Origin: a virus
Taxonomy: Duplodnaviria; Caudoviricetes
Reading direction: 5' to 3' (one strand)
Length of the DNA: 64,000 nucleotides
Virus record (IMG/VR): IMGVR_UViG_3300029705_000009
The position numbers and the translations under genes are program-made. This document shows, in pieces, positions 19,824 to 62,821 of this stretch; within the stretch, counting starts at the first letter, position 1; each line of letters starts with the position of its first letter. The notes beneath the pieces were generated by a model. The model worked only from the letters and a program-made list of their open reading frames with translations, ran no database searches and was not told the DNA's origin.

Positions 19824-20774
19824 TCACTTATGCCAATAGCGCATTTTGTCGCACTCATGAAAATCCAAAAGCATCTTATATTTTTCTTCGCCAAATACCT
19901 TATTCCATTTTTTATGAACTTTTTGATTGTTCCAGTTAAAAGGCATCATATGATAATTTATCAGAAATAGTATTTCTAAATATTCTTCATCAGAATAATC
20001 TCTATGCAATTTAGCACTTTCCAAATTGGACAATAAATAATATGCTCCTACGTTCTCGTGCTGATAATAATGTGCTATGCCACTTTCGTCAAAAGTCTGT
20101 GTAAACAATTTACCAACATCATGAAGTGATGCTCCGGTTCCATATATAAGCCAAGCATAGTTGCTCATCGCTAAAAATTTCTTTTTAACAAAATCACTAT
20201 GTTCATATAAATCCATATTATGATGTGGATTTTTCTGATCAAACCCTTTCATCTGATTATAACAATCAGTTAAGAAATTGGAATCAACTGTTTCATTTCT
20301 AAACTTATGAATGATAATTTCTTTAAAGCCTTCTTCGTAGAATGGAACCTGGAACTTTCCACGCTGCTTATAAATAACTTCATCTGGAACAGAATGCATT
20401 CTTTCTGAAGATATGTTGTCCAGAAGACAATCTTCTATCTTCTTTGGCACAACATAAGCAATGGGATAACATTCTATTCTTCTAATGGCTTCAAAAATAG
20501 CTGTTCTGGATTTAATTGTAATATTAGTGGCATCTGCGATTACATTATGACCGGAACGAAGATTTTCTCTTATTCTTTTATGAAAAATCTTAAATACTTC
20601 TTCATTCTTACTCTGGTCCGCAACACCACCTTCACATATTTCTCCTCTAATGACGTCCGAAGAAACTATAATGCAATCTTCTGCTTCTGCTATTCGTTTT
20701 GCTATGGTTGATTTACCGGAAGCTGATAAACCAACCATAATATAAAGTTTTGGGATTTTAATGTTAGATTTCAT
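19824..20774 (-). CDS. Polynucleotide kinase (AAA_33) fused to an HD domain
   Basis: GLSASGKST, SSD.IR, DATN; C-terminal HH...H, LHDVGK, HENVGA, YHM. Confidence 0.85.
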   Translation of the reverse strand: MKSNIKIPKLYIMVGLSASGKSTIAKRIAEAEDCIIVSSDVIRGEICEGGVADQSKNEEVFKIFHKRIRENLRSGHNVIADATNITIKSRTAIFEAIRRIECYPIAYVVPKKIEDCLLDNISSERMHSVPDEVIYKQRGKFQVPFYEEGFKEIIIHKFRNETVDSNFLTDCYNQMKGFDQKNPHHNMDLYEHSDFVKKKFLAMSNYAWLIYGTGASLHDVGKLFTQTFDESGIAHYYQHENVGAYYLLSNLESAKLHRDYSDEEYLEILFLINYHMMPFNWNNQKVHKKWNKVFGEEKYKMLLDFHECDKMRYWHK

Positions 20775-21792
20775 CTTTTACCACTCTTTCGTTTACGCTT
20801 GCCACAAATTCGTTGATTGCCTTGTAATTAGGGTTGTCTGGCAGAGATGTATTGGTTTTTGCATAATCTAGCCTGTTTTCATAATAATCTACCATTTCAA
20901 AAAATTCTGGTATTGGCTGCTCATTTTTATCTAAGTATTTGCCATTACGAATATCCATTAATAAATCATGCTCTTTCGAACGATATGTAATAATTTCTTC
21001 ATTTTCCAAGATGTCTAAGCACATCATATATAAACGAATCAAATGCATCATATGTTTCGATATTTTTCCATGACTTAAGGCATTCTCATTACGTTTGCCA
21101 ATCTTGCCGTAAGCTTTTACAGTGTTCTGCAGTTCACTCCACATAGAAGCATAATCACGAAGAGGATAATGATGCAAGCTTACATCCATAAAAATCTCTG
21201 TATCATAACCTGGTTGAACTGCTTTATCAATATAAAGATTTATGCTATCTTCAGGAAATGAAGAATATTTCTTATTAAAGTCATACTTCATAAACTCTAA
21301 TGTTTTAAGAATGTGTTGCTCCAGTCCAGTTTGTGATAACTGATGTGCAGCTTTTTGATTTAAACGATAAAGCTGTTGGTTCGCATATCCTCCAAATGAG
21401 TGAACTGCTTTCTTTGATAAGAAAAGCTTTCTATGTTTAATCAATTCTTCCCCAATAGGATGTAAATACAAATAGTGCTCTGGCTTTAAACCAAGCATCT
21501 CAATTGTGTTAGGATTTGTATTTGAGAGCAATGCAACAATTTTATTAAATGAATAAATTGTCGTATCAGTCTGTTCATTAACAAATTGCTCAAAGTTCTG
21601 GTTTGTAAGAATATCTTCTTTACGATTCAAGGCTATGCCTCTACAATCCAAATCCGACTCTGGAGTATTTGTTCCATAAGCATGGGATCCTCCAAGTCCA
21701 AGGAGAATAATGTTATGTCCTAGATGCTCATTGGTTCTTAAAAAGTCATATTCAGTTGAGTTAAGTGTTGCTTTAATCTGTTCAATGTTCAT
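20764..21792 (-). CDS. Pol beta-family nucleotidyltransferase (RlaP/YcgL-like)
   Basis: GGSHAYGTNTPESDLDCRG, NPNTIEML, KHMMHLIRL. Confidence 0.85.
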   Translation of the reverse strand: MNIEQIKATLNSTEYDFLRTNEHLGHNIILLGLGGSHAYGTNTPESDLDCRGIALNRKEDILTNQNFEQFVNEQTDTTIYSFNKIVALLSNTNPNTIEMLGLKPEHYLYLHPIGEELIKHRKLFLSKKAVHSFGGYANQQLYRLNQKAAHQLSQTGLEQHILKTLEFMKYDFNKKYSSFPEDSINLYIDKAVQPGYDTEIFMDVSLHHYPLRDYASMWSELQNTVKAYGKIGKRNENALSHGKISKHMMHLIRLYMMCLDILENEEIITYRSKEHDLLMDIRNGKYLDKNEQPIPEFFEMVDYYENRLDYAKTNTSLPDNPNYKAINEFVASVNERVVKDEI

Positions 21793-25275: not shown

Positions 25276-25291
25276 AACTAAATTTCTCCTT

Positions 25292-26402: not shown

Positions 26403-26422
26403 TCTCCAATACTATTAATAAA

Positions 26423-45654: not shown

Positions 45655-46968
45655 TTAGTTTAAAGAATCTTGAATAAGCTCTTGTTCTTCTTCTATATCC
45701 GGTGCGTCAGATGTATCTTTTATAATTCCTTCTAATACTTTAAAAGTAAAAGATTTTCTCTTAAAAGCAGTAAACTTACTTCTATTATCAATTCTGGCAA
45801 CAACACCTTCTGCCACATGTCTTGAATCTATCTCGTCCGGAATGTCAAGCCATTTATTTACTCTTTCGTTGAGATCATCTACTGTTGTAAATAAGAATTT
45901 GTCTAGAACAGGAACGAATTTACATCCCATTCTTTCACACCACATCTTGGTTTCTTCTGTAGGCAATTCAATAACAACACCATCTTCATTGGTCATCGTC
46001 ATTCTATAAACGTACATGTCGCTTTCGCCAGGTTCGCAACCATATGTAAATACAGTTTCCTTGCCATATATTTTTTCAAACTCTTTATCTTTTACTAGCT
46101 TATTGCTACATCTTCCCATAATAGGAGTCGTTTCATTTACCCAGCCTACAATTTCATAAAAAACGGTCATTCCTTTTGGTAGTTTGTCAGCAAAGAAATC
46201 ATGATATTTCTTTCTGAATTCATCATTACCGTAATAACCACCATCAAATTTCTTAAGAACAGTTCTTCTAGTACCGGATACCAGTTTGTATTCTTTTTTC
46301 TTCTTATCCTTTAAATTAAAAATCTTTTTCAATATAGGATTTCTGTGTTTTGTTGTTACCTGGATTGCTGCTTGTGTTCTACCGCTAGTTCCGTGCAGCT
46401 TTCTAGTTAAATAAACAATATCTCCATCTTTAAAGGCATGCAAATTATAATCAAGCTGTGATGTATCAATGTGCTCATCAAAATATGGATAAGACACCTC
46501 TTCTTTTTCAAATTTCTTTTTATGTTTTCCTTGACTGCCATCATGGATTCTCTGAGAATATGTTCTAGCTGGTATATATTTCTTACAAATCTCGTGACCA
46601 CCTAAAACAGTAATCTGATCACCATCTTTTAATTTTGAAATATCTGTATATTTTTCTAATACTCTTACTGGCAAAACCAAACCTTCAGACTTTTCGCCAC
46701 GTAATCTTATTGCAGTGATGTTACGTTTAGACGGATCCATATACCCACCTATGTTATTACCATTCTCATCCTTTTTACGAACAAGATTGTTATCGTTTGC
46801 AAACTCTTCAGATAATTGACCATCTGAAGGAAAGAACACAACCTGTTGACCTTCTTGATAAGATAAATCTACTATTACATTCTGACCAAATACTTCTACA
46901 CACTGCAAACGATCTGCATTACTATGTTTCCTTAGATTGTGTAATGTTGTAATGTAACCACAATACAT
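45655..46968 (-). CDS. RNA ligase (Rnl2/DRB0094-like) with N-terminal OB/tRNA-binding-like domain
   Basis: HSNADRL N-terminus; KLHGTS (motif I), YEIVG, EGVV, FK.K. Confidence 0.8.
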   Translation of the reverse strand: MYCGYITTLHNLRKHSNADRLQCVEVFGQNVIVDLSYQEGQQVVFFPSDGQLSEEFANDNNLVRKKDENGNNIGGYMDPSKRNITAIRLRGEKSEGLVLPVRVLEKYTDISKLKDGDQITVLGGHEICKKYIPARTYSQRIHDGSQGKHKKKFEKEEVSYPYFDEHIDTSQLDYNLHAFKDGDIVYLTRKLHGTSGRTQAAIQVTTKHRNPILKKIFNLKDKKKKEYKLVSGTRRTVLKKFDGGYYGNDEFRKKYHDFFADKLPKGMTVFYEIVGWVNETTPIMGRCSNKLVKDKEFEKIYGKETVFTYGCEPGESDMYVYRMTMTNEDGVVIELPTEETKMWCERMGCKFVPVLDKFLFTTVDDLNERVNKWLDIPDEIDSRHVAEGVVARIDNRSKFTAFKRKSFTFKVLEGIIKDTSDAPDIEEEQELIQDSLN

Positions 46969-49271: not shown

Positions 49272-49312
49272 TAAATTACATTCTCCCTTATTATTTTATT
49301 TACTCTCCGAAA

Positions 49313-50580: not shown

Positions 50581-50591
50581 TTGTTCCTCCT

Positions 50592-51948: not shown

Positions 51949-51982
51949 TGTATGTTTCCCATTTAATTTTATTCACTTACCA

Positions 51983-52624
51983 CTATACCAAATCACGATA
52001 TTCTGCAAGCATCTTAGCCAACTCAGGATTTCGATCAGCATAAACAACGTATTTGTTCATCTCATCCATCTCTGCAATTTTCTGATCCATCTTCTTACGA
52101 AGTTCTGCAGCCTTAACACGATTTTCTACTCTCTGATTGTAAGCAGATAAATCTACTTTACACTTTACTTCTGCAGTAATATTCTTTGAGAATCTTGCCC
52201 TAGCTTCTTCCACTGAAATAACTTCATCTACAACAACAACTCTTTCACATGCCCCAGAAATCAAGACTGAATCTCCTGCTTCAATGCTTTCATCATAAAG
52301 AGCATAATGATAATCCACTCCGGACATTTTAACTACTGCCACCTTGTTATAACCAGTCAACTTTTCCATTTCTTTTACCTCACATTCATTTTGATTAGTT
52401 ATTAATTGAACACTTGTGTCTTTAAGTGTTAAATATTTATCTCTATATTTACCTTCGCTATTCTTATATACATTTGGTTGATATATTGTACCATCTAAAA
52501 ATAAAGAAACATTACCGCTATAATAATGATAAGCAAATACAGTACCCAAATACCCTTTGTATTTAGATTTATTGGAAACAACTCTAATTCTATCTCCTGG
52601 TTTGAATATATATCCTCTGCCCAT
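51983..52624 (-). CDS. Hypothetical protein (KOW-like N-terminus)
   Basis: KPGDRIRV...KGYLGTV. Confidence 0.55.
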   Translation of the reverse strand: MGRGYIFKPGDRIRVVSNKSKYKGYLGTVFAYHYYSGNVSLFLDGTIYQPNVYKNSEGKYRDKYLTLKDTSVQLITNQNECEVKEMEKLTGYNKVAVVKMSGVDYHYALYDESIEAGDSVLISGACERVVVVDEVISVEEARARFSKNITAEVKCKVDLSAYNQRVENRVKAAELRKKMDQKIAEMDEMNKYVVYADRNPELAKMLAEYRDLV

Positions 52625-52653
52625 TGTTGTGTCCTTTCTGAATGATTTACTAA

Positions 52654-52726
52654 TTCTGATGGTAGGACTCGAACCTACGACGCGAGGAATTTACCGGCTC
52701 TGCTCTCCCAGCTGAGCTACATCAGA
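52654..52726 (-). ncRNA. tRNA-like RNA with a broken anticodon arm
   Basis: Intact acceptor, D and T arms (TAGCTCAG..GAGC; GGTTCGAGTCC); anticodon stem only 3 bp and no U33. Confidence 0.65.
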
Positions 52727-53232
52727 ACTTTTAAATTACATTTGACTACTCATGCAGTACTTCATGCCCGCACCCACCTATGTCTCCCACACACAACCTC
52801 GTCAAATGTTGTTTTTAAATGGTTTAATCGACCTCACCACAAACGGAGTTGTCCATCAACTCACATGGAACAGTTTTACCAGTTTTCTTTTTGGACGACT
52901 ATTACGTATGTCCTCCAACTGCCAAGTCGATTTTTTACATGCATGACCTACTAATCTGCAGCTAAGTAGGATTATGTTCAACACTTTATCGAAAGCCTGA
53001 ATCATTTTACTGAAAACGCTATTTTGACTCTGTTGCAAAATAGTAACGGTCAAGTGATAAGTCACTACCTCTGTTCTTTTCTCCACCAATTTACAGTAAG
53101 GAGTGTGTTTCCTTTTGAAACTTCTCAAAAGTCACTTCAGTGTCCGTTGCCGACCCTATTTTCTTTTTGAATTAAGGATAAGTCACTTCAGTAGAAAACC
53201 TTAGCTATCAGTTTTCTTATGCTGTTGCCCAA

Positions 53233-53306
53233 GTTCGCAACCAGGGGATGAACCTAGATTTCTTTCTTTGATCAGGAGAAAGCGTTTTGTCTTAAACTAC
53301 TGCGAA
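53233..53306 (-). ncRNA. tRNA-like RNA, Ile(GAT)-like with a 9-nt loop and short D loop
   Basis: TTCGCAG/TTGCGAA acceptor; CTTTCT-CCTGATCAA-AGAAAG; CTAGG-TTCATCC-CCTGG. Confidence 0.5.
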
Positions 53307-53348
53307 ACCGTTTTAACCCTATTAACCACTCCTCAAGGAAAGGAGAAA

Positions 53349-53428
53349 CGGCAGTCTCCGGAATCGAACCAGTAATTGTATCTGCTTTTTATTGTCCAGA
53401 TATTGCTTTGCCATTAAGCTAAACTGCC
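53349..53428 (-). ncRNA. tRNA-like RNA with an expanded anticodon loop
   Basis: GGCAGTT/GACTGCC acceptor, D arm, GGTTCGATTCC T arm; TATCTG-12 nt-CAGATA arm. Confidence 0.6.
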
Positions 53429-53698
53429 TCGTATGCGTTATTTCCGGTATACGCATCCCACCCTTGTTACAAATATTTCATTTCGTATACGTGATTGGTT
53501 ATGTCTATGAGTCCATACAACCATATCTGCACTTATCTTTTTTACGATTCCCTTCAGTGTGCAGAGACAGGAATACGATCGAGCCACGTTTTTCGGTTGT
53601 ACAAATACTACTTTGAAACATTTGTAGATTATTCTTTGCTCTACTGGTAATCAACCAGGTTTGGTTCCACCCAAACGTAACAAGTGAGCTTTTAGTGA

Positions 53699-53771
53699 TG
53701 GAGCGCCTGGGATTCGAACCCAGAACCGTCCGGTTATGAGCCGGATGCACTAACCGTTGTGCTAACGCTCC
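53699..53771 (-). tRNA. tRNA with CAT anticodon (Ile2-like or Met)
   Basis: Canonical cloverleaf; TCCGG-CTCATAA-CCGGA. Confidence 0.9.
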
Positions 53772-53803
53772 GTGTTTGCCAGAATATACTGTCTGGCTCA
53801 GTT

Positions 53804-53913
53804 GAGACTTTAATTATGAAAGAAATTTTGGTGGAATTTTGAAATGCTGTCGAATCGAACGACAAGAAAAACTTTTGCAGAGTTTTGAATTTAAAATTGC
53901 TGTAAGAGATCTC
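53804..53913 (-). ncRNA. ACAGCAA-module RNA joined to the 3' half of a tRNA-Cys
   Basis: TTACAGCAATTT, AAAACT-CTGCAAA-AGTTTT, TGTCG-TTCGATT-CGACA. Confidence 0.6.
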
Positions 53914-53962
53914 CACCCTTATCTCCTATAATTCTGTCACCAGACGCCTTTCGTATTTATTC

Positions 53963-54022
53963 TAGGCACGTTTACATTATTGATTAACAGTCAATTGTAT
54001 TTATATTTGCTGCATGTGCCTA
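53963..54022 (-). ncRNA. Module RNA with an Asn(GTT) anticodon stem-loop mimic
   Basis: TAGGCAC/GTGCCTA closing stem, ATGCAGCAAAT, ATTGA-CTGTTAA-TCAAT. Confidence 0.7.
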
Positions 54023-54028
54023 TATTGC

Positions 54029-54205
54029 TAGATACCATATATCAGAGTTTACTTAAATTTGCACCAAGCTACAGATTCGAACTGCCATCTTCTCCTTTAA
54101 AGGGAGACGTAATATTCTTGCGAATGCGCTTTGCCCTATTATACTATCTCGGTGGTTTCCTCATCATACTTTTTTACGCATTATTTATATCGCTGTTGGT
54201 ATCTA
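54029..54205 (-). ncRNA. Module RNA enclosing a tRNA-like domain (54062-54153) with TTA anticodon
   Basis: TAGATACC/GGTATCTA closing stem, AACAGCGAT; TCTCC-CTTTAAA-GGAGA; TTCGAAT T loop. Confidence 0.6.
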
Positions 54206-54220
54206 TTTAATTTTATTTAG

Positions 54221-55771
54221 TTATACAATGTCTTTAACGGCATCCTCTACTACTTGGTATCTTTCGGAGTTAAGCTGTTCAACCAAACATTCAAACGGAT
54301 CGAGCTTTCCACTAAGTACCATCTTGCAGATAGCAGGGCTAAAACCAGACACTAACGCTACTGGGAAGTTTTCGTGCCGATTTACAGGCAAGGTACCGGT
54401 TCTACTACAAATGTTCCAGAATACAACACGAGGCATTTTGTAACCAGCATTAGTCCATTTCTGTTCAATTTCTCTGAATAAAGTATTTTTTACTCCCCAT
54501 CCACCACTATTATCTATTGCACATGAATCGAATTCCATATCTGATAAAATAAGAACATTTGTAGGAATATCTTCTTGGCTCATTTTCTTGCTAACGGCAG
54601 TCTTGAGTAATAAATCAAACACAGCTTCAATATTGGTATTGGCCACCTCATTATATCTAAGTGCAATCGCAATCTTTTCTCTTAAAGTCTTAGCTTGAGA
54701 AAAGTCTACTAATTGAGGTCTATGGCTAAAAGTAATGTAATTGTTCTTAAACTCTCCATTACTATGCTCTGCAAAATAAATTGCTAAAGCATTTGCAACA
54801 TCAAGACATGTCACATTGGTTCCACCAACTGTACTTTTCATACTTCCGGAGCCATCAGCAACACAAATCGTGTTTCCCTGACCCTTTACAAAGTCAGGAA
54901 GTGCTTTCCATAACTGCTCCAATGTAGTATCTACACCAGATTTTAAATATTGACCATAACCAGAACCAGTCATATAACTATGAACAATATCATGAGGGAA
55001 GTTAACAGAACTGTTAATCTTTACACCTTCATCTCCACGCTCTAAAGCTGCCAGATAAGCTCTACGTCTCTCTTCATCATTTCTTAAGAAAGCTCCATTG
55101 TAAATCAGATTCGCTCTTGAAGGTACTGTGTTATAGTCGATTTCACTCCACTCTTTCGCAGACATTTTAACTTCTACAACATTAAGATACTTACGAAGAG
55201 AAGAAAGTGTCTTTCGATAATTTCTCTCTGTCATATTAAGACCGGAATAAAGAATCCTTGCAAGTCTTCTGTTTCCCTTTGAGGAGCAATTAGTACTAGG
55301 CATCCATTTTGCCAAGAGTGAAATAGGCTTGTTTTCCATCTGATTAGCGCAGTCTTCCTCAAGCTGCATTGCAACCCAGGCTATAACATCTTCACGAAGT
55401 TTTGTATCAAGCAGACACCACATATCATCTACACGGCCATATTCCGGTGCTAAGCTAAACACTGCCTTTGCAATCTCAGGTTGTTCTGTTGCCAACCATT
55501 TCAGACACACTCTAAACAATCTTCTTTCGCCAATGCCTTCTCTTGCATCTCTGCAATAGAATAACCACTTTACGGCAAGCAGCTTGTCTTCATAGAAAGC
55601 CTTAGCAAAAGCATCTTCAATTGCTTTATCACTCTTATTTCTGAAAGATGTTACACCGAAATTAATATCTAACAGCTTTCTTCCGGATGTGCCAAATCCT
55701 AACGCTCCATTTTCTGTAATGGAAAAGCTATTCTGATCTAGTGTTGTTTTTAAATTATTCATAAAACTCAT
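54221..55771 (-). CDS. DUF2828-family helical + vWA protein (Ro60/TROVE-like architecture by inference); start reassigned to MSFMNN
   Basis: RDAREGIGERRLFR, SLLAKWMPS, YRK.L...V.E.KM, DGSGSM (MIDAS), LSDMEFD, VFWN; AAGGAG RBS before ATG 55771. Confidence 0.85.
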   Translation of the reverse strand: MSFMNNLKTTLDQNSFSITENGALGFGTSGRKLLDINFGVTSFRNKSDKAIEDAFAKAFYEDKLLAVKWLFYCRDAREGIGERRLFRVCLKWLATEQPEIAKAVFSLAPEYGRVDDMWCLLDTKLREDVIAWVAMQLEEDCANQMENKPISLLAKWMPSTNCSSKGNRRLARILYSGLNMTERNYRKTLSSLRKYLNVVEVKMSAKEWSEIDYNTVPSRANLIYNGAFLRNDEERRRAYLAALERGDEGVKINSSVNFPHDIVHSYMTGSGYGQYLKSGVDTTLEQLWKALPDFVKGQGNTICVADGSGSMKSTVGGTNVTCLDVANALAIYFAEHSNGEFKNNYITFSHRPQLVDFSQAKTLREKIAIALRYNEVANTNIEAVFDLLLKTAVSKKMSQEDIPTNVLILSDMEFDSCAIDNSGGWGVKNTLFREIEQKWTNAGYKMPRVVFWNICSRTGTLPVNRHENFPVALVSGFSPAICKMVLSGKLDPFECLVEQLNSERYQVVEDAVKDIV

Positions 55772-55816
55772 TTCTTTTTCTCCTTTTTGAATAGTTTTAT
55801 TTGCTTTAACTATTCC

Positions 55817-55868
55817 AAGATACATTTGATAGATTTGCAGTCTAATTTTTATTTGCTGTTAGTATCTT
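55817..55868 (-). ncRNA. Module RNA with a Cys(GCA) anticodon stem-loop mimic
   Basis: AAGATAC/GTATCTT, TAACAGCAAAT, TAGA-CTGCAAA-TCTA. Confidence 0.7.
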
Positions 55869-55880
55869 AGAAATTAATAA

Positions 55881-55998
55881 GCGGAGAGTGTGGGACTCGA
55901 ACCCACGACAACAGGCTCCCTAAGCAATATAAAATTGCAGTATAAGTCTTTCTCAAGACTCGTTTTTTTCTGTGCTCTACCAACTGAGCTAACCTCCG
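55881..55998 (-). tRNA. tRNA-Pro(AGG)-like gene with a 44-nt insertion (55926-55969)
   Basis: CGG start, D and T arms; removing the insert gives CAGGC-TTAGGGA-GCCTG. Confidence 0.75.
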
Positions 55999-56003
55999 CA
56001 TAT

Positions 56004-56121
56004 CAGAGAGGGTAAGATTCGAACTTACGACCTACGGGTTAACAGCCATTGTAAAATTGCAGTTTAAGTCTTTGACAAGACCCGATTATTACGTTGCTCT
56101 ATCCAGCTGAGCTACCTCTCT
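56004..56121 (-). tRNA. tRNA-Asn(GTT) gene with a 44-nt insertion (56048-56091)
   Basis: Perfect acceptor, D and T arms, G73; removing the insert gives ACGGG-CTGTTAA-CCCGT. Confidence 0.8.
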
Positions 56122-56124
56122 GAG

Positions 56125-56251
56125 TGGGGAAAGAATGGATTCGAACCATCGAAGCATAATGCGAGAGATTTACAGTCTTCACAAATTGCAGTTAATGTCT
56201 AACTAGACATGTTCTCCGTTCTCTTGGGTTTGTCCACTTCCCTATTTCCCC
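56125..56251 (-). tRNA. tRNA-Tyr(GTA) gene with a 44-nt insertion (56178-56221)
   Basis: Tyr-type D arm and long variable arm; removing the insert gives AGAGA-CTGTAAA-TCTCT. Confidence 0.8.
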
Positions 56252-56264
56252 ATATTTAGTTTTC

Positions 56265-56327
56265 TAGTCGCCATAAAAACTTATCAGATCCCTAATCAGA
56301 TGTTTTTAATGTTGCTGTAAGCGACTA
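56265..56327 (-). ncRNA. Module RNA with a Pro(AGG)-like anticodon loop
   Basis: TAGTCGC/GCGACTA, TTACAGCAAC, ATCTGA-TTAGGGA-TCTGAT. Confidence 0.65.
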
Positions 56328-56330
56328 ACT

Positions 56331-56387
56331 AGATGCTTTTGAATTACAATTTAAAAGATTGTTCCAATAAAATTGCTGTATGCATCT
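56331..56387 (-). ncRNA. Module RNA with a Lys(TTT) anticodon stem-loop mimic
   Basis: AGATGC/GCATCT, ATACAGCAATTT, ACAAT-CTTTTAA-ATTGT. Confidence 0.7.
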
Positions 56388-56389
56388 GA

Positions 56390-56502
56390 AGACGTGAGAC
56401 GGAGTTGAACCATCATCTGTGCCTTGGCTTCCTTTAATTTGCTGTTTGAGTTAAACTAAACTCTTTATTCGGAGCACCGTGCTACCATTGCACCATCACG
56501 CC
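56390..56502 (-). ncRNA. tRNA-Gly(GCC)-like RNA with a ~42-nt module insertion
   Basis: GGCGTGA/TCACGTC acceptor, D and T arms; insert hairpin plus AAACAGCAAAT before GCCAA. Confidence 0.65.
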
Positions 56503-56507
56503 ATATC

Positions 56508-56582
56508 AAAGCGGTTTGAGGTATTGTCGTTTTCCTCTCATTAATGTTTTCTGGAGACAAAATATCTTGCTGTAACCGCTTT
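56508..56582 (-). ncRNA. Module RNA with no clear anticodon loop
   Basis: AAAGCGG/CCGCTTT, TTACAGCAAG, inner TTGTC/GACAA stem. Confidence 0.55.
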
Positions 56583-56589
56583 TAATTAC

Positions 56590-56655
56590 TAGACAGATTA
56601 AAATATATAATATGTATTCTGGCATATATTCTTTAAATGTTGCTACTTCTGTCTA
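56590..56655 (-). ncRNA. Module RNA with a variant motif
   Basis: TAGACAG/CTGTCTA, AAGTAGCAAC, inner ATATG/CATAT hairpin. Confidence 0.5.
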
Positions 56656-56657
56656 AA

Positions 56658-56729
56658 CAGGGCTAGCTGGATTCGAACCAGCGACTGCAGCAGTCAAAGT
56701 GCTGTGCCTTACCGCTTGGCGATAGCCCT
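56658..56729 (-). tRNA. tRNA-Gln(TTG)
   Basis: Canonical cloverleaf; CAGCA-CTTTGAC-TGCTG. Confidence 0.93.
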
Positions 56730-56927
56730 ATAAATTCTGGTGGTTCTTTTACATCTACCACCAAAGATGTATCATAAGAAAGGAGGTACGTTTGCAAGAA
56801 GCAAACCAAACTTTAGGAATATGTCGTAATAATAGGCTTTTATTGCACACTTTCGTTTTTGTGTGTAATTTTATTTACCTACGATTGTTTTTTTGAGGAC
56901 TTAATGTCCTCAATCTCAACTGTACTT

Positions 56928-57049
56928 AGTCTACCATACTATGCAATAATTGTCAATACACTTTTTGATATTTAATTTTATTTACCTATTACCAAAAAAA
57001 AATAATTTCCTGATGAAACTATACTACCACGGCTAACACATATTGTCAA
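56928..57049 (-). promoter_or_regulatory. Two tandem SigA-type promoters upstream of the ncRNA island
   Basis: TTGACA-17-TAGTAT (57049-57021) and TTGACA-17-TAGACT (56956-56928), both with TG extension. Confidence 0.7.
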
Positions 57050-57065
57050 CACCTTTTGCATTATT

Positions 57066-60000
57066 TTATTCACCTATTTTTTCTTTATATGGCACCGGTA
57101 TGTCATATTCTTTCCAGGCAATAATGTTTATCTTGTCAGACACAGGTTTTCCACAATCCTCTTCCCAACGTTTATCATATTGATTCCATGTCACTTTTCT
57201 TACGTAATAGAAATCCTTTTTTCTACTATCTTTGGTAAGGATGGTAACCCAGTAAGGGTTATAGTATTCTTCAATTTCAGGCAGCCGATCAGAAACCGGA
57301 ATCCAATCTTTGTTATATTCCTCTTCTACTTCATTAACGATTTTGATAGCCGTATTAAATGCATGGTTTTCTATGTCGCTCACTTCATTATCGGATAATG
57401 CAATACACATATTCTTCATGGATTTTAATTTTAGATTATGTGCTGCCAATCGCTCTTTTATCTTCTCAAACGCCGTTTTCATTGCTCCACCACCTCTATT
57501 CTTTTCCCACAAGTATTACAGTAAACATTCTGCATACTTGGCTCATTACTAAACAGTCTTCCGGTATGAGGATTTCTAATAAACCCATTTACGTGTTTCC
57601 ATTCGCAAATATCATCCACAAACCTCACATTTTCCTCAACATCCTTAATAGCTTCTGCAATAAACTTGTCCCTTGCTAGGTTGGGTTCTAAAAGCTGTTT
57701 CAGAGTGAGTGTAGGCTCTTTGTGTTTCTCTGCTATTCCGTTAACGATTTCAAGTGAAACGACAATTCCGTTCGCATACCCTTTTGCAGAATCGAATTGC
57801 AACTGATTTTCTCTTGCACATCTTTCTTTTTCTCTATCAGCAAGAAATAATTCTTCTTCCAATCGCTCTTTTATCTTTTCGAACGCACTTTCCATCACTC
57901 CACCACCTTTATTTTCTTGCCACACACAGGACAATACTTATATCTGTATTTTTCTTCTTCAAGGCAAGATATAACTAATTCTGTATTATGTTGACAATGT
58001 AAATATACTCCGTCAATTTTCCACTCGCAAAAATCATTAATGCATTTATCTGCTACTTCGTTTACGATTTCGCTTGCTTTATAAAAGCCATAATCTACCC
58101 CATGATAATAATTCTTATCAATTTCGGAGTTACTTTCATATTTATCTCTAGCGGCTATTCCTCGCCTTTGCTTAAACTGTTCTAAAATCTTTTCAAACGC
58201 TTCTTTCATTTCTGCTCCTTTCTACTCTGTTTTCTCCAAAAGTTATCGCATTTAAAAAATATGTTTTTGGGCACTCTGAACTATATACCTAAAATACATA
58301 TGTAATATTTCATTTCTGCTCCTTTCACTCCAAAATGCTTACCGCTTTATTAGGATTTTCATTTGCCCATTTCACCCAATTTTCTGCAAATGGTCTGGTT
58401 TTTTCATTCAGGCCAAACACTTCTCTAGTAATTATGTAGCCTTTGCCAATACACTCTTCCATCATTTCAGTATTAGAATCTACATCGTCGGCATCTAATG
58501 GAATGAATTTTGATTTTGTAAAATATCTTCTACCATATTTCTTCGTAATGGTAATTTTTTTGATTTTGTCCTCTATCAATACCCATACTTCTTTTCCGTC
58601 ACGTTCTCTCTTGTAGATGCCACCTATTGAATCTCCTATATTCATACCTACTCCTCTACCAACTCTAATATTTCAATAGCAACAATCATTTGGTTCATAC
58701 CGTATCCATCTTCATGAATCTCCAGCGTGTCACCATTTTCATTTTTTAATGTAACTGAATATACTCCATAACCATCATCGAAATATTGCAAATTACAATC
58801 GTTTTCAGTATCATCAAAATCCCATGTGTCAAAATCCGAACAACCAATAATATCTAAGCCTCTACAATTGCCGCCCATTTCAAAGATTACATGTCCGACA
58901 TAATCCCATTGCTGCAATGTAATTTTTACCTTATGTCTTCCTATTAAATTAGGGTCATAATTCTTCATGTCTGCTCCTTTCACAGTAATGCTTTCTGTAT
59001 TGCATCGTTAATTTGCCATCTATATGGTACATTTCGTATAAGCAGACATGTGTGGCCGTACTCGGCACCCTCCTCTGCCTCTCTTCCCATAGGACATTCG
59101 TTACAAATACAACTATGTGTTACGCATTCATTTTGAATAACGTGTAATGCTTCAATTAGCTTTTTCATGTCTGCTCCTTTCTAAAACAGTCCAAATAATT
59201 TCAACAAACTCATAAAACACAATGTTATAAAACCACTTAAAAAAATGCAAAATATGCGTATCGTTGCATTAATCCATCCTTTCATGTATGCTCCTTTCAC
59301 TCCCAATGAAATCTCTCATGCCATTGTTCTTCTGGTGGCAATCTTTTGTACGCATTCAAGCATAACTGTCTATCTGACTTATCTCTCCATCTTGGGTCTG
59401 GCATTGCAACATGACAACTGCATTTGCCATCTTCATTTAGTTGTAAATTCGCACACGTACTGCATTGAAATGCTTTCATGTCTGCTCACCTACTTTTTAA
59501 TTCTTTGTATCAATGATTTAATATATCTGTTTCCTTTACCCATGAATCCTCCTATAGTTGCAATTATCCACATGCAAATAAGGTTTTCTGTCGCACGTTT
59601 CAAAGTGTTTGCAGTCGGCACATTCTTTGAAACCAAATTTAAATAAATATATGATTTTCTTTAACTTATCCTTCATGTCTACCCCTTTCGCAGTAATGCT
59701 TTCTGTACTTCCATATCATCAATTTCCCAAGTTTCTGGCTCATATTTAAGACCACAAAAGCCATTTATGGAAAAAGGACATTTAGGATCTTCTGCACACC
59801 TTCTGCGTTTCTTGCATTCTTTTTGAATAACATGTAATGCTTCAATCAGTTTTTTCATTTCGCACTGCCTTTCCGCATATCTGCTCCGCACTCATAACAG
59901 AATTTCATTTCCCTACCATAACCAACAACCTTTAATTTAAGTCCACAAACAGAGCATTCTTCCCACTTTGCAAAACCATGTTCATCTTCTTTTACAACCC

Positions 60001-62820
60001 ACTCCCCATGAACCACCGGTGCAGCTTCGATTGTAGGCTGGTCATCAACTATGCTAATTATCGAACAAATGCTATCGGCTACTTCTTCTGCATCTGAATA
60101 ACATCCTCGATTAGCAATCACTCCTGAACGCTCTTCCCACAATTCCTCTATCAACGCACTTCTGCTTATCAAATCACTCATACTCTTCTCCCTTCATCTG
60201 TTGCTAAATTTCAATTTGTCCACTTGCTGTTATATTTCTCTAGCCTATCTTCTACCGACTTAATACTTTCGTTGATTGTACTTAATGCGATTTCGTAGTT
60301 CTCAATTTTATTATCAAGAATTTCAAATCTTTGGTCTTTTAATTCTTCCAAAATAAGAGAACATACTGCTTGTGCTCCGTCTGCAAAACCACTTTTATAT
60401 TTATGCTCTAAATCCTCTTTGGTAACAGAATTACTACAGCCACTCTTGCTAAGTCCCATAAAAACACCTCCACAAATCTTTATTCTCCCTTCATCCATTG
60501 CTAAATTTCAATTAACTGCATCAATCTTCATCTGGTAGGAATTGCGGACAATCATCTTCTGTTTCGATAAGCTTGTCACCTATGTTACAGTTGCAACTAC
60601 AATTTGCATAACCTTCTTCTAATTGAGAATTATAAGAATCATTGCAACTATTTCTTGCACATACTCTGCATAGACAATCGGCACAATCTTCATCTGATTC
60701 TACCAATCTTTCTTTTTTCGGATCAGTCTCCTTAAATTCCTTCTTCTCTGGCAACGGTTTCAAAGGGCACCAATCTTGCTTTGTCTCATATCTGTTAGAG
60801 CAAAACTTATTTGCTTTCATGCAAATTCCATCATTTGAACATATCTCACATTCTGCACAGTTTTCTGGCATGTCCATAATTAAAATTGCTTTGCTCATTT
60901 CGCACCGCCCTTTCGCATAATTGCACCACACTCAGGGCATGAATTACATTTCACATAGTCTGACCAATAAGCCATACGATACTTGCCGCACACAGAGCAT
61001 TTCGGTTTCCTATTCCCATGTTCATCTGGTTCTTCTTTGAGCCATTCACCATACACCACCGGTACAGCTTCGATTGTTGGTTGCTCATTGATAATATCTA
61101 CTATTGTCGTGTCATCATAGTTATCACCACACACACCATCGTCCAAGTAAAATGAGACCTCAACGCCCTCTATCGATTTCAACAACGCACTTCTGCTTAT
61201 CAGATCACCCATCTTTATTTATCCTTTCCACTAAATAATTCCATAGTTTTCTTGTGCAAAAATTCCACATCGTCAACTCCCAAAGTAGGAAACACCTGTT
61301 GCCAGTGTCCGTATTTTGCAGAATGTTGAATCCATTCACTTTCCATAGGCTCTAGCATTGGCTCATTATTCCTCACAAACATCATAAGCCTAATATCAAC
61401 TGTCTTAGTATCTCTGTTAAACACCATTGACAAACTCATACTATCATCACGTTTTTGGTATACCACATATCTATCTGTTTCGCCGTATTTGTTACTTTCG
61501 TTCATACTCTTCTCCCTCTTGCTCAGAAATAAACCTATTAAAATCACTTGCAACAAACTTTGGGTCACCATAAAATCCACTTTGGTATCTATCATCTTTT
61601 TCCATGATAGCTTTAATTAAAAGTGCATTTCTTCTGCTACTGCATATCAGTTTCAGTTCTCCGTTCTCGTATAAGCCATAATCACAAACTATAGACCTTA
61701 CATCATATTTGCTCATGCTCTTCTCCCTTCATCCTCTACTAAGATCTATTTTGTTTACATCCCGGATTTCTGGCATACGAACCTGCGATGTTTCTATTAC
61801 TTCAAATATTCCTATAACCCAGCTGTCACCTTCTACTTTTTTGCTTTTGGTTGTAATGCTGATAACCTCCACATCATCATCACAAATTACTGTTATTTCC
61901 CTTGCCATAATTATTCTCCCTTCATCTTCTCCAAGGCTACTTCGGCTTCTTCTCTGGTTCTAAAACATTGATTCTCAAATTCTTTAAAGTCCAACTTCCA
62001 ATAATCCCTTTGATTTTCAATAGAGTCTAACCAGGCATATCCGCAATTAATTTGGTTTACTTCGTCTACGTGAATTGTGTACCCTGTACATTTGACATGT
62101 GTCACTGTATCATCTTCATAAGCGAGCACCCAAAACTCATCACCCACCTTGCAAGGCAATACCAGAAGTCTCCCTTGTTCTTCTAAATCCTCATAATTTG
62201 CAAGCTTCTTCATTGCATCTGCAAAAGGATTGCAATGATGGCATTCATAATAACCATTTACACATTCTTTTTCGCAAACCTCATAACAGAGTGCTGTTTT
62301 ATTATTTAACCATTTAGTCAATCTCTCCATGTTATTCACCCCAATTAAATACCTGATAGCAAAAGCTACAACAAACATCATCTTCATCCACGATACATCC
62401 GCAATTTGGACAGTTGCCTATAAATCCTACAAAAACCTTCTCATCAAGAACCATTGTTTTGTGCGTCGGATTCTTCGGTGTCATCCTTTCCAATGCTAAA
62501 ACTGCCATTTCCAACGCTTCTCCAAGTTCTCCCTTGGGATTTCTATCAGCTATATACCGCATCAATGGTGTTTGTTTAATCTTTTCGATTGCTTCTTTCT
62601 CTGTCATAATCACCACTCCTATCATTTTTCATTATTCTTTTCGCTTAATACATATAATTCTGATATCATTCTCTTCCATCTTTTCATAACGTCGATATCC
62701 ACACCAACCATGTTCGGCACCACAATTTTCTTCACAAAATTCATAACTATCATTTACGTGATCACACAACATGCAATTAGGATCTTCGTCATCTGCTGTA
62801 TATTCTATGTATTTTGCCAT
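57066..62820 (-). other. Block of about 20 small accessory ORFs, including paralogous families (AFEKI.., DLISRSAL.., MKKLIEALHVIQ..) and zinc ribbons
   Basis: Shared N- and C-terminal peptides and repeated RBS junctions. Confidence 0.75.
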
Positions 62821-62821
62821 A

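What the first reader, a model, noticed from the sequence alone, without database searches (positions are those of the whole stretch)
55881..56251. Three adjacent tRNA genes (Pro, Asn, Tyr) each carry an exactly 44-nt insertion at anticodon-stem position 29/30
The inserts at 55926-55969, 56048-56091 and 56178-56221 are each 44 nt. Each holds a hairpin (GAGTCTT/AAGACTT, GGGTCTT/AAGACTT, ATGTCTA/TAGACAT) followed by WWACTGCAATTT, a permuted version of the free-standing module. Removing each insert restores a perfect 5-bp anticodon stem and 7-nt loop. The Tyr boundary can slide because of a short repeat. The inserts are far too short for group I or II introns. Inference: either a new protein-dependent tRNA intron class (ligated by the phage RNA ligase) or permanent tRNA-module chimeras. 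A fourth, more degenerate case (Gly GCC, ~42 nt) lies at 56390-56502.
Basis: partly seen in the sequence, partly recalled or inferred. Interest (0 to 1): 0.9.

Follow-up and report, generated by a model that had tools for sequence, protein, structure and literature searches.

The report
Phage tRNAs carrying a Ro-protein handle
Four phage tRNA genes carry a conserved hairpin-plus-ACWGCAA insert in the anticodon stem, which is most likely a permanent docking site for the Ro60-like protein encoded next door and not an intron, so these look like a new, normal-order form of the tRNA-like "Y RNAs" and occur in many phage families.

Summary
A fourth, Gly-like gene has a 42-nt insert.

The insert is a covarying hairpin followed by ACWGCAA. 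A model of it found 80 copies in 86 sources, all on the strand of a DUF2828/DUF7788 gene and nearly all within 1 kb upstream of it. That protein's predicted fold matches Ro60 over its full length.

The same motif also occurs free-standing, with a terminal stem enclosing anticodon-loop mimics or tRNA-like domains. It sits beside DUF2828 genes in Listeria, Salmonella, Enterococcus, Mycobacterium and Campylobacter phages. Some of those copies match Rfam YrlA over its full length, below threshold. Insert-bearing tRNAs also exist in cultured cyanophages and an Aeromonas phage, where they are annotated as pseudo or undetermined tRNAs.

- Insert length (about 39-57 nt) and position (26/27 to 31/32) vary between relatives.
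- About a fifth of the loops lack U33.
- Anticodons change on bodies that are otherwise 97% identical.
- No archaeal-type splicing endonuclease was found.

I favour a retained Ro60-like-protein handle (tRNA/Y-RNA chimeras, about 0.55) over a spliced intron (about 0.2). No RNA data could be obtained. The scan had already noted this same stretch in an overlapping window (e1-5642405); that follow-up was withheld.

The parts
55882..55997 (-). tRNA-Pro(AGG)-like chimera. The insert is 55926-55969 (44 nt, after nt 29). Hairpin strands are 55955-55961 and 55944-55950. ACTGCAA plus its U-rich tail is 55926-55941.
   Evidence: Rfam tRNA 35.4 bits. Excision gives tRNA-Pro agg. Insert model R1 scores 47.5 bits. 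Coordinates.
56004..56121 (-). tRNA-Asn(GUU) chimera with discriminator G73. The insert is 56048-56091 (44 nt, after nt 29). Hairpin strands are 56077-56083 and 56066-56072. The motif is 56048-56063.
   Evidence: Rfam tRNA 46.8 bits. Excision gives tRNA-Asn gtt. R1 scores 44.7 bits. Coordinates.
56125..56251 (-). Class-II tRNA-Tyr(GUA) chimera. The insert is 56178-56221 (44 nt; the boundary slides over 28-31). Hairpin strands are 56205-56210 and 56195-56200. The motif is 56178-56192.
   Evidence: Excision gives tRNA-Tyr gta. R1 scores 36.1 bits. The ortholog in L011 carries GAA on the same class-II body.
56390..56502 (-). Gly(GCC)-like chimera. The 42-nt insert is about 56431-56472, at 31/32. 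Hairpin strands are 56459-56463 and 56448-56452. The motif ACAGCAA starts at 56445. The loop AAGCCAA has A33.
   Evidence: Rfam tRNA 44.5 bits. R1 scores 35.7 bits. Deleting 42 nt gives tRNA-Gly gcc. Orthologs in L011 and L001 also have A33.
54221..55771 (-). Gene for the Ro60-like protein (DUF2828 + DUF7788/vWA). The start at 55771 follows the 516-aa database form; the longest ORF reaches 55825.
   Evidence: Pfam DUF7788 1e-43 and DUF2828 3e-32. The AlphaFold model's best 13 Foldseek matches in the PDB (ranks 1-10, 12, 13) are all Ro60 entries, aligned over the full length. P0001 is 100% identical.
56508..56582 (-). Free-standing module 1: terminal stem 56574-56582 with 56508-56516, and ACAGCAA directly after the 5' strand.
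56331..56387 (-). Free-standing module 2: terminal stem plus ACAGCAA, enclosing a hairpin with the loop CUUUUAA (a Lys-UUU mimic).
   Evidence: The same loop on stems of differing sequence is seen by eye in L010-L013.
56264..56328 (-). Free-standing module 3: terminal stem plus ACAGCAA, displaying UUAGGGA, the same loop as the Pro chimera.
   Evidence: (z = -3.05).
55814..55871 (-). Free-standing module 4, in the 5' leader of the Ro60-like gene. It has a 10-bp terminal stem, ACAGCAA and the loop CUGCAAA (a Cys mimic). Orthologs show Tyr (L010) or Asp (L011) loops.
54030..54204 (-). Nested module: a terminal stem plus ACAGCGA enclosing a whole tRNA-like cloverleaf (54062-54153). The cloverleaf has a 23-nt D-loop insert and the loop CUUUAAA (anticodon UUA).
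   Evidence: Rfam tRNA 35.6 bits. Sequence. Stem coordinates.
53963..54022 (-). Free-standing module 5: terminal stem plus (G)CAGCAA, enclosing a hairpin with the loop CUGUUAA, the same loop as the Asn chimera.
53830..53917 (-). Free-standing module 6: terminal stem plus ACAGCAA, a hairpin with the loop CUGCAAA and a T-arm-like hairpin (loop UUCGAUU).
56928..57049 (-). Two sigma-A-like promoters (TTGACA, 17-nt spacer, TG-extended -10) upstream of tRNA-Gln and the whole RNA array.
   Evidence: No promoter or terminator is predicted inside the inserts.
45655..46968 (-). ATP-dependent RNA ligase (RNA_ligase domain plus PHA02142 OB domain).
19824..21792 (-). P-loop kinase (AAA_33/KTI12-like, Pnk-type) overlapping an RlaP RNA-repair nucleotidyltransferase gene.

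Best explanation
The ~44-nt inserts are protein-binding handles, not introns. Each is a 6-9 bp hairpin whose 3' strand runs into the conserved single-stranded motif ACWGCAA(U/A)UU.

This is the same element that, in free-standing RNAs of the same locus, forms the terminal stem made by the RNA's two ends. It corresponds to the Ro-binding stem of a Y RNA.

I propose three steps:
1. The Ro60-like DUF2828/DUF7788 protein encoded directly downstream binds the hairpin plus motif.
2. The handle stays in the mature RNA, branching from the 5' strand of the anticodon stem. The acceptor, D and T arms and the anticodon loop fold as in a tRNA.
3. The resulting particles display tRNA anticodon arms. They do not decode.

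The chimeras are therefore a normal-order counterpart of YrlA-type Y RNAs, which are circularly permuted tRNA mimics without an anticodon loop or a CCA end.

The most likely use is in the conflict over tRNAs. The particles could act as baits, competitive inhibitors or shields against host nucleases that cut the anticodon arm, or as a platform that feeds damaged anticodon arms to the phage's kinase and ligase.

What is shown:
- the element, its covariation and its topological variants;
- its strict linkage to the gene;
- the Ro60 fold of the protein.

What is inferred:
- binding of the protein to the element;
- retention of the insert in the mature RNA;
- the decoy or repair role (my estimate is about 0.3 for this sub-claim).
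For: 1. RNA-level selection on the insert. The hairpin is paired in 91% of cells, 6 of 7 pairs have double changes, and 0 of 500 shuffles reach the observed score. All 7 pairs covary in 80 copies, and C-W-G-C-A-A is nearly invariant.

2. Linkage to the gene. Model R1 found 80 hits in 699 kb. All are on the DUF2828 strand and nearly all lie 100-1000 nt upstream. Only the four known copies occur in the whole 64-kb window. ACAGCAA occurs 536 times on the gene's strand against 41 on the other strand in 94 loci. Of these, 282 against 10 have a closing stem. Permuted heptamers give 22-91.

3. The partner protein has the Ro60 fold. The best 13 Foldseek matches in the PDB (ranks 1-10, 12, 13) are all Ro60 entries: the phage phiLo, Xenopus, Deinococcus and human proteins. 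E-values run from 8e-8 to 5e-5 over about 520-585 aligned columns. Pfam also gives a weak vWA_Ro60 hit.

4. The same module works outside tRNAs.
- There are 215 distinct free-standing copies. Their outer end, AAAG.../...CUUG, equals the apical end of the embedded hairpin, so the two forms are circular permutations.
- In this window the free-standing copies enclose anticodon-loop mimics, one whole cloverleaf and one T-arm.
- The loops CUGUUAA and UUAGGGA appear both on a chimera and on a free-standing hairpin in this window.

5. Link to Y RNAs. Free-standing ACAGCAA modules flank DUF2828 genes in Listeria LP-125, Felix O1, Enterococcus ZJGS3, Mycobacterium Clautastrophe and Campylobacter F352. 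The ZJGS3 and Clautastrophe copies align over the full Rfam YrlA model at 36-48 bits, with E-values from 4e-9 to 2e-5. Published work places YrlA within 4 kb and on the same strand as Ro60 genes (PMC4201824). It also reports that Ro60 reads mainly the conserved 5' strand of the stem (bioRxiv 10.1101/312249).

6. Features that fit poorly with decoding tRNAs.
- Insert length is about 39-57 nt and the position varies from 26/27 to 31/32.
- 15 of 62 loops lack U33, including the conserved Gly-like AAGCCAA/AAUCCAA.
- Anticodons GCA, GUA and CCA occur on a body that is 97% identical.
- GAA sits on the Tyr-type class-II body.
- A34 in Pro(AGG) is unusual for bacteria (general knowledge).

7. No splicing machinery was found. 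PF01974 (EndA) and RtcB are absent from five phage genomes that carry chimeras, while the controls were positive. No ribozyme or intron family matches in 50-64 kb.

8. Conflict context.
- The most frequent chimeras in the sampled loci (62 contexts, many from closely related phages) are Asn GUU (14) and Lys UUU (5); Thr GGU/UGU together 4.
- The PARIS nuclease AriB cuts Lys UUU, Thr UGU and Asn GUU between nt 40 and 41 (PMC12409363). That bond lies directly opposite the 29|30 insertion site.
- P2 OLD severs the anticodon stem on both strands (PMC12445682).
Against: - No RNA-level or binding data exist. Retention of the insert and binding by the protein are inferences.
- After precise excision most chimeras are near-perfect tRNAs: 5-bp stems, U33 in 47 of 62 and a purine at 37 in 57 of 62. 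Asn keeps G73 in three very distant phages, and the two BUCT-ZZ01 chimeras encode CCA. Such fidelity is what one would expect if they are matured and charged.
- RNA ligases and a Pnk-type kinase co-occur with the chimeras.
- The window's modules do not reach any Rfam Y-RNA threshold. Their motif differs from the YrlA GNCGAA motif.
- The proposed decoy or shield role rests on a match to published nuclease targets from E. coli systems, not on this host.
Confidence: 0.55

Rival explanations
1. The inserts are a new class of protein-dependent tRNA introns. An unknown endonuclease recognises the hairpin plus ACWGCAA at the three-way junction and cuts both ends. The phage kinase and RNA ligase rejoin the halves to give functional tRNAs. 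The Ro60-like protein may act as chaperone or scaffold.
For: - Exact excision restores canonical tRNAs in most cases.
- Identity elements are kept: G73 for Asn, the class-II arm and A73 for Tyr, and an encoded CCA in BUCT-ZZ01.
- RNA ligase, a Pnk-type kinase and RlaP are present in the window. Rnl1- or Rnl2-type ligases are present in most genomes with chimeras.
- Insert-free Asn, Tyr and Met tRNAs sit at the equivalent place in Campylobacter phage F352.
Against: - No candidate endonuclease was found. EndA-type domains and RtcB are absent from five genomes.
- No conserved nucleotides mark the junctions. Length and position vary.
- The same module is common in RNAs that cannot be spliced into anything.
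- About a fifth of the products would lack U33.
- Anticodons hop on fixed bodies.
- The linked protein has an RNA-binding ring fold with no nuclease domain detected.
Confidence: 0.2
2. The insert is permanent and the tRNAs still decode. The handle, with or without the bound protein, protects the anticodon stem from host nucleases that cut there, giving nuclease-proof working tRNAs.
For: - The insertion site 29|30 lies directly opposite the 40|41 bond cut by AriB (PMC12409363).
- It also lies within the stem region cut on both strands by P2 OLD (PMC12445682).
- The isotypes overlap the AriB target set.
- The tRNA features are well kept.
Against: - A 40-55-nt arm on the anticodon stem is expected to clash with the ribosomal A and P sites. 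This rests on general structural knowledge and was not tested here.
- Loops with A33, and anticodons mismatched to their bodies, argue against decoding.
- Free-standing hairpins showing the same loops cannot decode.
Confidence: 0.1
3. These are decayed tRNA pseudogenes hit by a small mobile or repeat element. Alternatively, the motif is a DNA-level signal such as a promoter, terminator or recombination site.
For: - GenBank annotators called such genes tRNA-Pseudo or tRNA-Undet.
- The hairpin loop region resembles a -35 box in two of the copies (by eye).
Against: - Compensatory changes keep the hairpin paired.
- Orthologous chimeras persist across phages whose Ro60-like proteins are only 37-80% identical.
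- The strand bias is 536 to 41.
- No promoter or terminator is predicted inside the inserts.
- No target-site duplications or near-identical copies were seen.
Confidence: 0.03

Closest known systems
YrlA-type bacterial and phage Y RNAs with Ro60/Rsr (Rfam RF02553; Chen et al. 2014, PMC4201824; Wang et al. 2018, bioRxiv 10.1101/312249; Thermus phage phiRo60 with Yrl1/2, PMC12135203)
   Same: - The RNAs are tRNA-derived and are encoded within a few kb of, and on the same strand as, a Ro60-fold protein gene.
- They are modular: a stem with a conserved sequence on one strand, joined to a tRNA-like part.
- They sit near RNA ligase and repair genes.
- Free-standing relatives in Enterococcus and Mycobacterium phages align to the whole YrlA model.
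   Different: - Here the tRNA is in normal order, with open acceptor ends and a real anticodon loop. YrlA is circularly permuted, has a closed acceptor, and has no anticodon loop or CCA end.
- The presumed protein-binding stem is a capped hairpin branching from the anticodon stem's 5' strand. In YrlA it is the stem formed by the RNA's two ends.
- The motif is ACWGCAA, not GNCGAA.
- The protein belongs to Pfam DUF2828/DUF7788, not TROVE.
- The window's RNAs stay far below the Rfam threshold.
Archaeal and eukaryal protein-spliced tRNA introns, including non-canonical positions such as 29/30 (review PMC4090602)
   Same: - Short intervening sequences lie inside the anticodon arm, sometimes in the stem.
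- Exact removal restores a canonical tRNA.
   Different: - No EndA-type endonuclease is found in phage genomes with these tRNAs.
- I did not test formally for a bulge-helix-bulge motif, and none is evident by eye.
- The insert carries a conserved sequence motif shared with RNAs that are not tRNAs.
- The hosts are bacteria.
Phage tRNAs that evade or titrate anticodon-arm nucleases (T5 tRNAs against PARIS AriB, PMC12409363; phage tRNA-Thr against P2 OLD, PMC12445682)
   Same: - Both are phage-encoded versions of Asn GUU, Lys UUU, Thr UGU and similar tRNAs, altered in the anticodon stem.
- Possible competitive inhibition of the nuclease is discussed in PMC12409363.
   Different: - The known cases differ by point substitutions or a shorter stem, and they still decode.
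- Here a 40-55-nt structured handle is inserted, and the RNAs are linked to a dedicated Ro60-like protein.

Membership tests
Y RNA / YrlA (Rfam RF02553) | Encoded within about 4 kb of, and on the same strand as, a Ro60 ortholog | tested here: met
   The chimeras lie 110-730 nt upstream of the DUF2828/DUF7788 gene on the same strand. All 80 hits are co-oriented with the gene and nearly all lie within 1 kb upstream. The protein has the Ro60 fold. It is not a Pfam TROVE member.
Y RNA / YrlA (Rfam RF02553) | A long stem formed by the RNA's 5' and 3' ends that carries the conserved Ro-binding sequence (GNCGAA in YrlA) | tested here: not met
   In the chimeras the stem is a capped hairpin inside the tRNA, and the motif is ACWGCAA. 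The free-standing modules of the same locus do have the end-to-end stem.
Y RNA / YrlA (Rfam RF02553) | A tRNA-like domain in permuted order (T arm, closed acceptor hairpin, D arm) without an anticodon loop or CCA end | tested here: not met
   The chimeras have normal order, open acceptor ends and 7-nt anticodon loops. The BUCT-ZZ01 copies encode CCA.
Y RNA / YrlA (Rfam RF02553) | Score at or above the Rfam gathering threshold (69 bits) | tested here: not met
   The best score in the window is 24.9 bits, at 56066-56176. That match spans the 3' half of Tyr and the 5' half of Asn, so it is a tandem-tRNA artefact. Free-standing relatives in other phages reach 36-48 bits.
Y RNA / YrlA (Rfam RF02553) | Physical binding to the Ro60-type protein | not testable with these tools
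   This needs co-purification or a gel-shift assay.
Protein-spliced (BHB/EndA-type) tRNA introns | A splicing endonuclease of the EndA/Sen family is available | tested here: not met
   PF01974 is absent from five phage genomes with chimeras, and 4 archaeal controls were positive. Host genomes were not available.
Protein-spliced (BHB/EndA-type) tRNA introns | A bulge-helix-bulge motif at the two junctions | not tested
   The junctions were only inspected by eye. They are A/U-rich with no conserved nucleotides. Pairing between the two linkers is no better than in shuffled sequence.
Protein-spliced (BHB/EndA-type) tRNA introns | Spliced product and excised intron detectable as RNA | not testable with these tools
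Self-splicing group I/II introns and small ribozymes | A match to a catalytic RNA family, and sufficient length | tested here: not met
   No intron or ribozyme family matches at E up to 1 in 50000-64000. At 42-44 nt the inserts are far below group I/II sizes (general knowledge).
Ro60 / TROVE-vWA proteins (for the neighbouring gene) | A HEAT-repeat ring plus a C-terminal vWA/MIDAS domain | tested here: met
   The AlphaFold2 model has mean pLDDT 73.8. The best 13 Foldseek matches in the PDB (ranks 1-10, 12, 13) are Ro60 entries over the full length, at TM 0.36-0.51. Sequence-only searches of PDB chains found nothing, so the relation is remote.

The most novel reading that the evidence does not exclude
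The handles are removed after all. Phages of bacteria would then have a protein-dependent tRNA splicing pathway. The hairpin plus ACWGCAA would mark the intron. A Ro60-like ring would hold the pre-tRNA. A still unknown nuclease would cut, and the phage kinase and ligase would reseal. This would be the first non-ribozyme tRNA splicing known in the bacterial world. It might be used to keep phage tRNAs inert or nuclease-proof until needed.
Probability: 0.15. Interest if true: 0.9.

Novelty: new variant of a known kind. Interest (0 to 1): 0.75.

Why it matters
Y RNAs and Ro60 have been known for decades, yet what bacterial and phage versions do is still open.

What this locus adds:
- It shows that a very large Ro60-like family has its own conserved RNA handle (stem plus ACWGCAA). 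The family has more than 6,400 database proteins at E below 1e-10 and is present in 705 GenBank phage records.
- It shows that phages graft this handle onto anticodon hairpins, onto whole cloverleaves and into otherwise normal tRNAs.
- The tRNA-embedded form has free acceptor ends and an anticodon loop. It therefore links true tRNAs to permuted YrlA mimics and bears on how Y RNAs arose.

It also reinterprets genes that GenBank lists as pseudo or undetermined tRNAs in cultured cyanophages and an Aeromonas phage.

The system becomes testable in tractable hosts such as Synechococcus elongatus PCC 7942, Aeromonas, Listeria and Salmonella Felix O1.

If the particles neutralise or repair damage from anticodon-arm nucleases such as PARIS, OLD or PrrC-like enzymes, this would be a new kind of counter-defence.

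Tried and rejected
- A second helix between the A-rich 5' linker and the U-rich 3' linker of the insert looked convincing by eye. It is no better than shuffled linkers (mean longest helix 4.38 against 4.23), so I dropped it.
- Letting ARAGORN pick the excision freely was too permissive. I then required a perfect 5-bp stem and a junction at 26-31. A few of the 62 assignments with weak A/U stems remain doubtful.
- The Rfam YrlA hits inside the window (24-25 bits) span the halves of two neighbouring tRNAs and are artefacts.
- Sequence-only searches of PDB chains, with the protein and with a profile, found nothing. Only the fold comparison linked it to Ro60.
- No whole genome is held for the window.
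- GenBank phages hold no close DNA relative of the region.
- The Listeria phage CKA15 transcriptome paper (PMC12282133) gives coordinates for only one of its three abundant non-coding regions. That region turned out to be a ROOL RNA, not the ACAGCAA modules. Expression of the modules is therefore not shown.
- Supplementary tables of Chen et al. 2014 were not held. I could not check which phage RNAs they had already listed.
- Literature searches for DUF2828, phage Y RNAs and interrupted phage tRNAs found no description of this element.
- RNA ligase co-occurrence does not discriminate between the models. Ligases are present in almost all of these genomes.
Full report
**1. What is in the sequence**

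All genes in the window are on the minus strand. Read on that strand, 56760 to 55780 holds the following in order:
- a normal tRNA-Gln;
- a Gly-like tRNA;
- two small structured units;
- three tightly spaced tRNA-like genes (Tyr, Asn, Pro);
- one more small unit.

A 516-534-aa gene follows.

ARAGORN sees none of the four unusual tRNAs. The Rfam tRNA covariance model aligns three of them end to end, with one large gap in the anticodon arm.

Each has a perfect 5-bp anticodon stem and a 7-nt loop. The Gly-like gene needs a 42-nt deletion at 31/32, and its loop AAGCCAA lacks U33.

**2. Anatomy of the insert**

Each insert has three parts:
- an A-rich linker;
- a hairpin whose apical end reads CUUG-loop-AAG;
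- two or three nucleotides, then ACWGCAA and a U-rich tail.

On 23 copies from this window and relatives the hairpin is paired in 91% of cells. Six of seven pairs show double changes, and no shuffle out of 500 matches it. On 80 copies all seven pairs covary, and CWGCAA is nearly invariant.

A second helix between the two linkers, which I first believed in, is no better than chance.

Thermodynamic folding of the full genes predicts the acceptor, D and T arms and this hairpin. The z-scores are modest, because the region is A/U-rich.

**3. The neighbour is a Ro60-like protein**

The gene directly downstream has Pfam DUF2828 and DUF7788/vWA domains and a weak vWA_Ro60 hit.

An AlphaFold2 model built from 13 homologs has mean pLDDT 73.8. 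Its best 13 Foldseek matches in the PDB (ranks 1-10, 12, 13) are all Ro60 entries: Thermus phage phiRo60, Xenopus Ro, Deinococcus Rsr and human Ro60. The alignments cover the full length, with E-values from 8e-8 to 5e-5. Sequence-only searches of PDB chains fail, so this is a remote relative.

The family is very large. More than 6,400 database proteins score below E 1e-10, and homologs occur in 705 GenBank phage records.

**4. Linkage of the RNA element to that gene**

A covariance model of the insert (R1) was searched over 86 sources totalling 699 kb. It gave 80 hits:
- all are on the strand of the DUF2828 gene;
- nearly all lie 100-1000 nt upstream of it;
- in the whole 64-kb window only the four known copies score.

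The heptamer ACAGCAA occurs 536 times on the gene's strand against 41 on the opposite strand in 94 loci. Permuted heptamers occur 22-91 times.

**5. The same element outside tRNAs**

In this window and in relatives the motif also follows the 5' strand of a 7-10-bp stem whose partner strand lies 40-150 nt downstream.

There are 215 distinct such modules. Their outer end is dominated by AAAG.../...CUUG, which is the sequence at the apex of the embedded hairpin.

What the free-standing modules of the window enclose:
- hairpins with anticodon-type loops: CUUUUAA, UUAGGGA, CUGCAAA, CUGUUAA;
- one hairpin together with a T-arm;
- in one case a whole cloverleaf with anticodon UUA.

Two loops, CUGUUAA and UUAGGGA, appear both on a chimera and on a free-standing hairpin in this window.

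The module just before the gene shows a Cys loop here, a Tyr loop in L010 and an Asp loop in L011.

**6. Reach across phages, and the link to Y RNAs**

Free-standing ACAGCAA modules sit next to the DUF2828 gene in five further phage groups:

| Phage | Modules |
|---|---|
| Listeria phage LP-125 and the P100 group | three, directly upstream |
| Salmonella phage Felix O1 | four, between the tRNAs downstream |
| Enterococcus phage ZJGS3 | three |
| Mycobacterium phage Clautastrophe | three |
| Campylobacter phage F352 | two |

In ZJGS3 and Clautastrophe the modules enclose a T arm, a closed acceptor hairpin and a D arm. They align over the entire Rfam YrlA model at 36-48 bits, with E-values from 4e-9 to 2e-5. 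That is below the 69-bit threshold.

YrlA RNAs are the tRNA-like Y RNAs that bind bacterial Ro60. They are encoded within 4 kb and on the same strand as its gene (PMC4201824). Ro60 reads mainly the conserved 5' strand of their terminal stem (bioRxiv 10.1101/312249). The stem-plus-ACWGCAA element is thus best read as the Ro-binding module of a divergent, DUF2828-specific Y-RNA family.

**7. Chimeras elsewhere**

Relatives whose Ro60-like proteins are only 37-49% identical to this one also have 113-120-nt tRNAs with the same insert. So do closer gut-phage relatives.

Cultured phages have them too:
- Synechococcus phages B23 and B3, annotated tRNA-Undet;
- BUCT-ZZ01, with two unannotated copies that both encode CCA;
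- Aeromonas phage Ahp1_CNU-2021, annotated tRNA-Pseudo, an Asn(GUU).

A 735-kb uncultured phage gives a weak DNA match (78% over about 115 nt; not inspected).

All five complete or near-complete genomes tested carry the DUF7788 gene. In Ahp1 it lies 3 kb upstream of the chimera, on the same strand.

**8. Intron or permanent handle?**

Points against an intron made to yield decoding tRNAs:
- Insert length runs from about 39 to 57 nt, and the junction from 26/27 to 31/32.
- 15 of 62 loops lack U33, including the Gly-like family conserved in three phages.
- Three genes that are 97% identical differ essentially only in the anticodon: GCA, GUA and CCA.
- The Tyr-type class-II body carries GAA in a relative.
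- The same module is abundant where nothing can be spliced.
- No EndA-type nuclease or RtcB is encoded in five genomes with chimeras.
- No ribozyme family matches.

Points for an intron:
- Most products would be excellent tRNAs.
- Asn keeps G73 in three distant phages, and BUCT-ZZ01 encodes CCA.
- RNA ligases, a Pnk-type kinase and an RlaP nucleotidyltransferase are present.

I could not obtain any RNA data. I therefore put about 0.55 on a retained handle in non-decoding RNAs, 0.2 on splicing, 0.1 on a retained handle in tRNAs that still decode, and little on pseudogenes or DNA signals. The remaining ~0.1 is left to readings not listed here.

**9. Likely use**

This part is inference.

Among the sampled contexts (62, many from closely related phages) the most frequent chimeras are Asn GUU and Lys UUU; Pro, Gly, Ala, Leu and Thr follow at similar lower counts.

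The PARIS effector AriB cuts Lys UUU, Thr UGU and Asn GUU between nucleotides 40 and 41, with His and Pro as minor targets. The authors raise competition by phage tRNAs as a possibility (PMC12409363). Nucleotides 40 and 41 pair with 30 and 29, so the handle emerges directly opposite that bond.

P2 OLD cuts both strands of the anticodon stem, and phage ligases cannot repair that damage (PMC12445682).

A Ro60-like particle that displays anticodon arms could act as a bait, an inhibitor or a shield. It could also act as a platform for the phage's repair enzymes.

In Listeria phage CKA15 the DUF2828 protein was found in purified virions at 57% sequence coverage (PMC12282133). The particle might therefore act from the first moments of infection.

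**10. Comparison with what is known, and novelty**

The closest known system is Ro60 with YrlA. The chimeras fail three of the YrlA membership features that I could test: the end-to-end stem with GNCGAA, the permuted order without an anticodon loop, and the Rfam score. They meet the genomic-linkage feature. I therefore call them a new variant that works like a Y RNA, not members of YrlA.

I found no paper that describes DUF2828-linked RNAs, the ACWGCAA motif or insert-bearing phage tRNAs. I could not see the supplementary phage list of Chen et al. 2014.

The scan's earlier notes on this genome had already flagged the module array, the A33 loop, the YrlA resemblance of the nested unit and the repair genes. 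I re-tested each of these here.

Noticed in passing
L015:2462-3013 (Listeria phage LP-125); by my coordinate transfer about 26,236-26,727 of phage CKA15, OR088597.1: This stretch matches Rfam ROOL RNA at 87.4 bits (threshold 99.1, E = 2e-16). It corresponds to the most highly transcribed 'non-coding' region that the CKA15 multi-omics paper could not assign (PMC12282133). The three ACAGCAA modules lie about 630 nt further downstream, at 25,217-25,608.
   Followed up: partly
window 54030-54204 (-): A tRNA-like cloverleaf (54062-54153) has a 23-nt hairpin in the D loop and the loop CUUUAAA (anticodon UUA, ochre-reading). It is enclosed by a module stem with ACAGCGA. This is a third topology for the same handle.
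   Followed up: partly
window 52653-52727 (-): ARAGORN calls this tRNA-Tyr(gta). The Rfam alignment shows only a 3-bp anticodon stem and no class-II variable arm, so it is another altered tRNA-like RNA at the far end of the island.
   Followed up: no
window 55771-55825 (-): The longest ORF of the Ro60-like gene starts at 55825. The database form is 516 aa and starts at the ATG at 55771, which has a strong GGAG ribosome-binding site. Module 4 (55814-55871) then lies in the 5' leader, which would allow autoregulation.
   Followed up: no
window 47658-51948 (-): The phage region carries ABC-transporter parts: a permease, an ATPase and an NMT1-type binding protein fused to an OmpA domain. PspA-like and coiled-coil proteins lie next to them. 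This is unusual cargo between the RNA island and the RNA ligase.
   Followed up: no
L003:3540-3791, L007:3540-3791, L008:2555-2806, L009:919-1407: Relatives carry tmRNA genes (two-piece cyanobacterial type, or standard) just upstream of the DUF2828 gene, within long tRNA arrays.
   Followed up: no
L010-L012 (gut-phage relatives): KTI12/AAA_33 kinase, Thg1-like 3'-5' polymerase, GIY-YIG nuclease and RNA ligase genes recur beside the DUF2828 locus. These are further tRNA end-repair functions.
   Followed up: no
L101:1817-2266 (Campylobacter phage F352); L016:5540-6270 (Felix O1): Uninterrupted tRNA-Met, Asn(GUU) and Tyr(GUA) lie directly beside the DUF2828 gene and its free-standing modules; in Felix O1 also Pro, Glu and Asp. 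The same isotypes carry the insert in other phages.
   Followed up: partly
My Pfam scan found only the N-terminal AAA_33/KTI12 kinase (residues 10-144 of 316) and no HD hit.
   Followed up: partly
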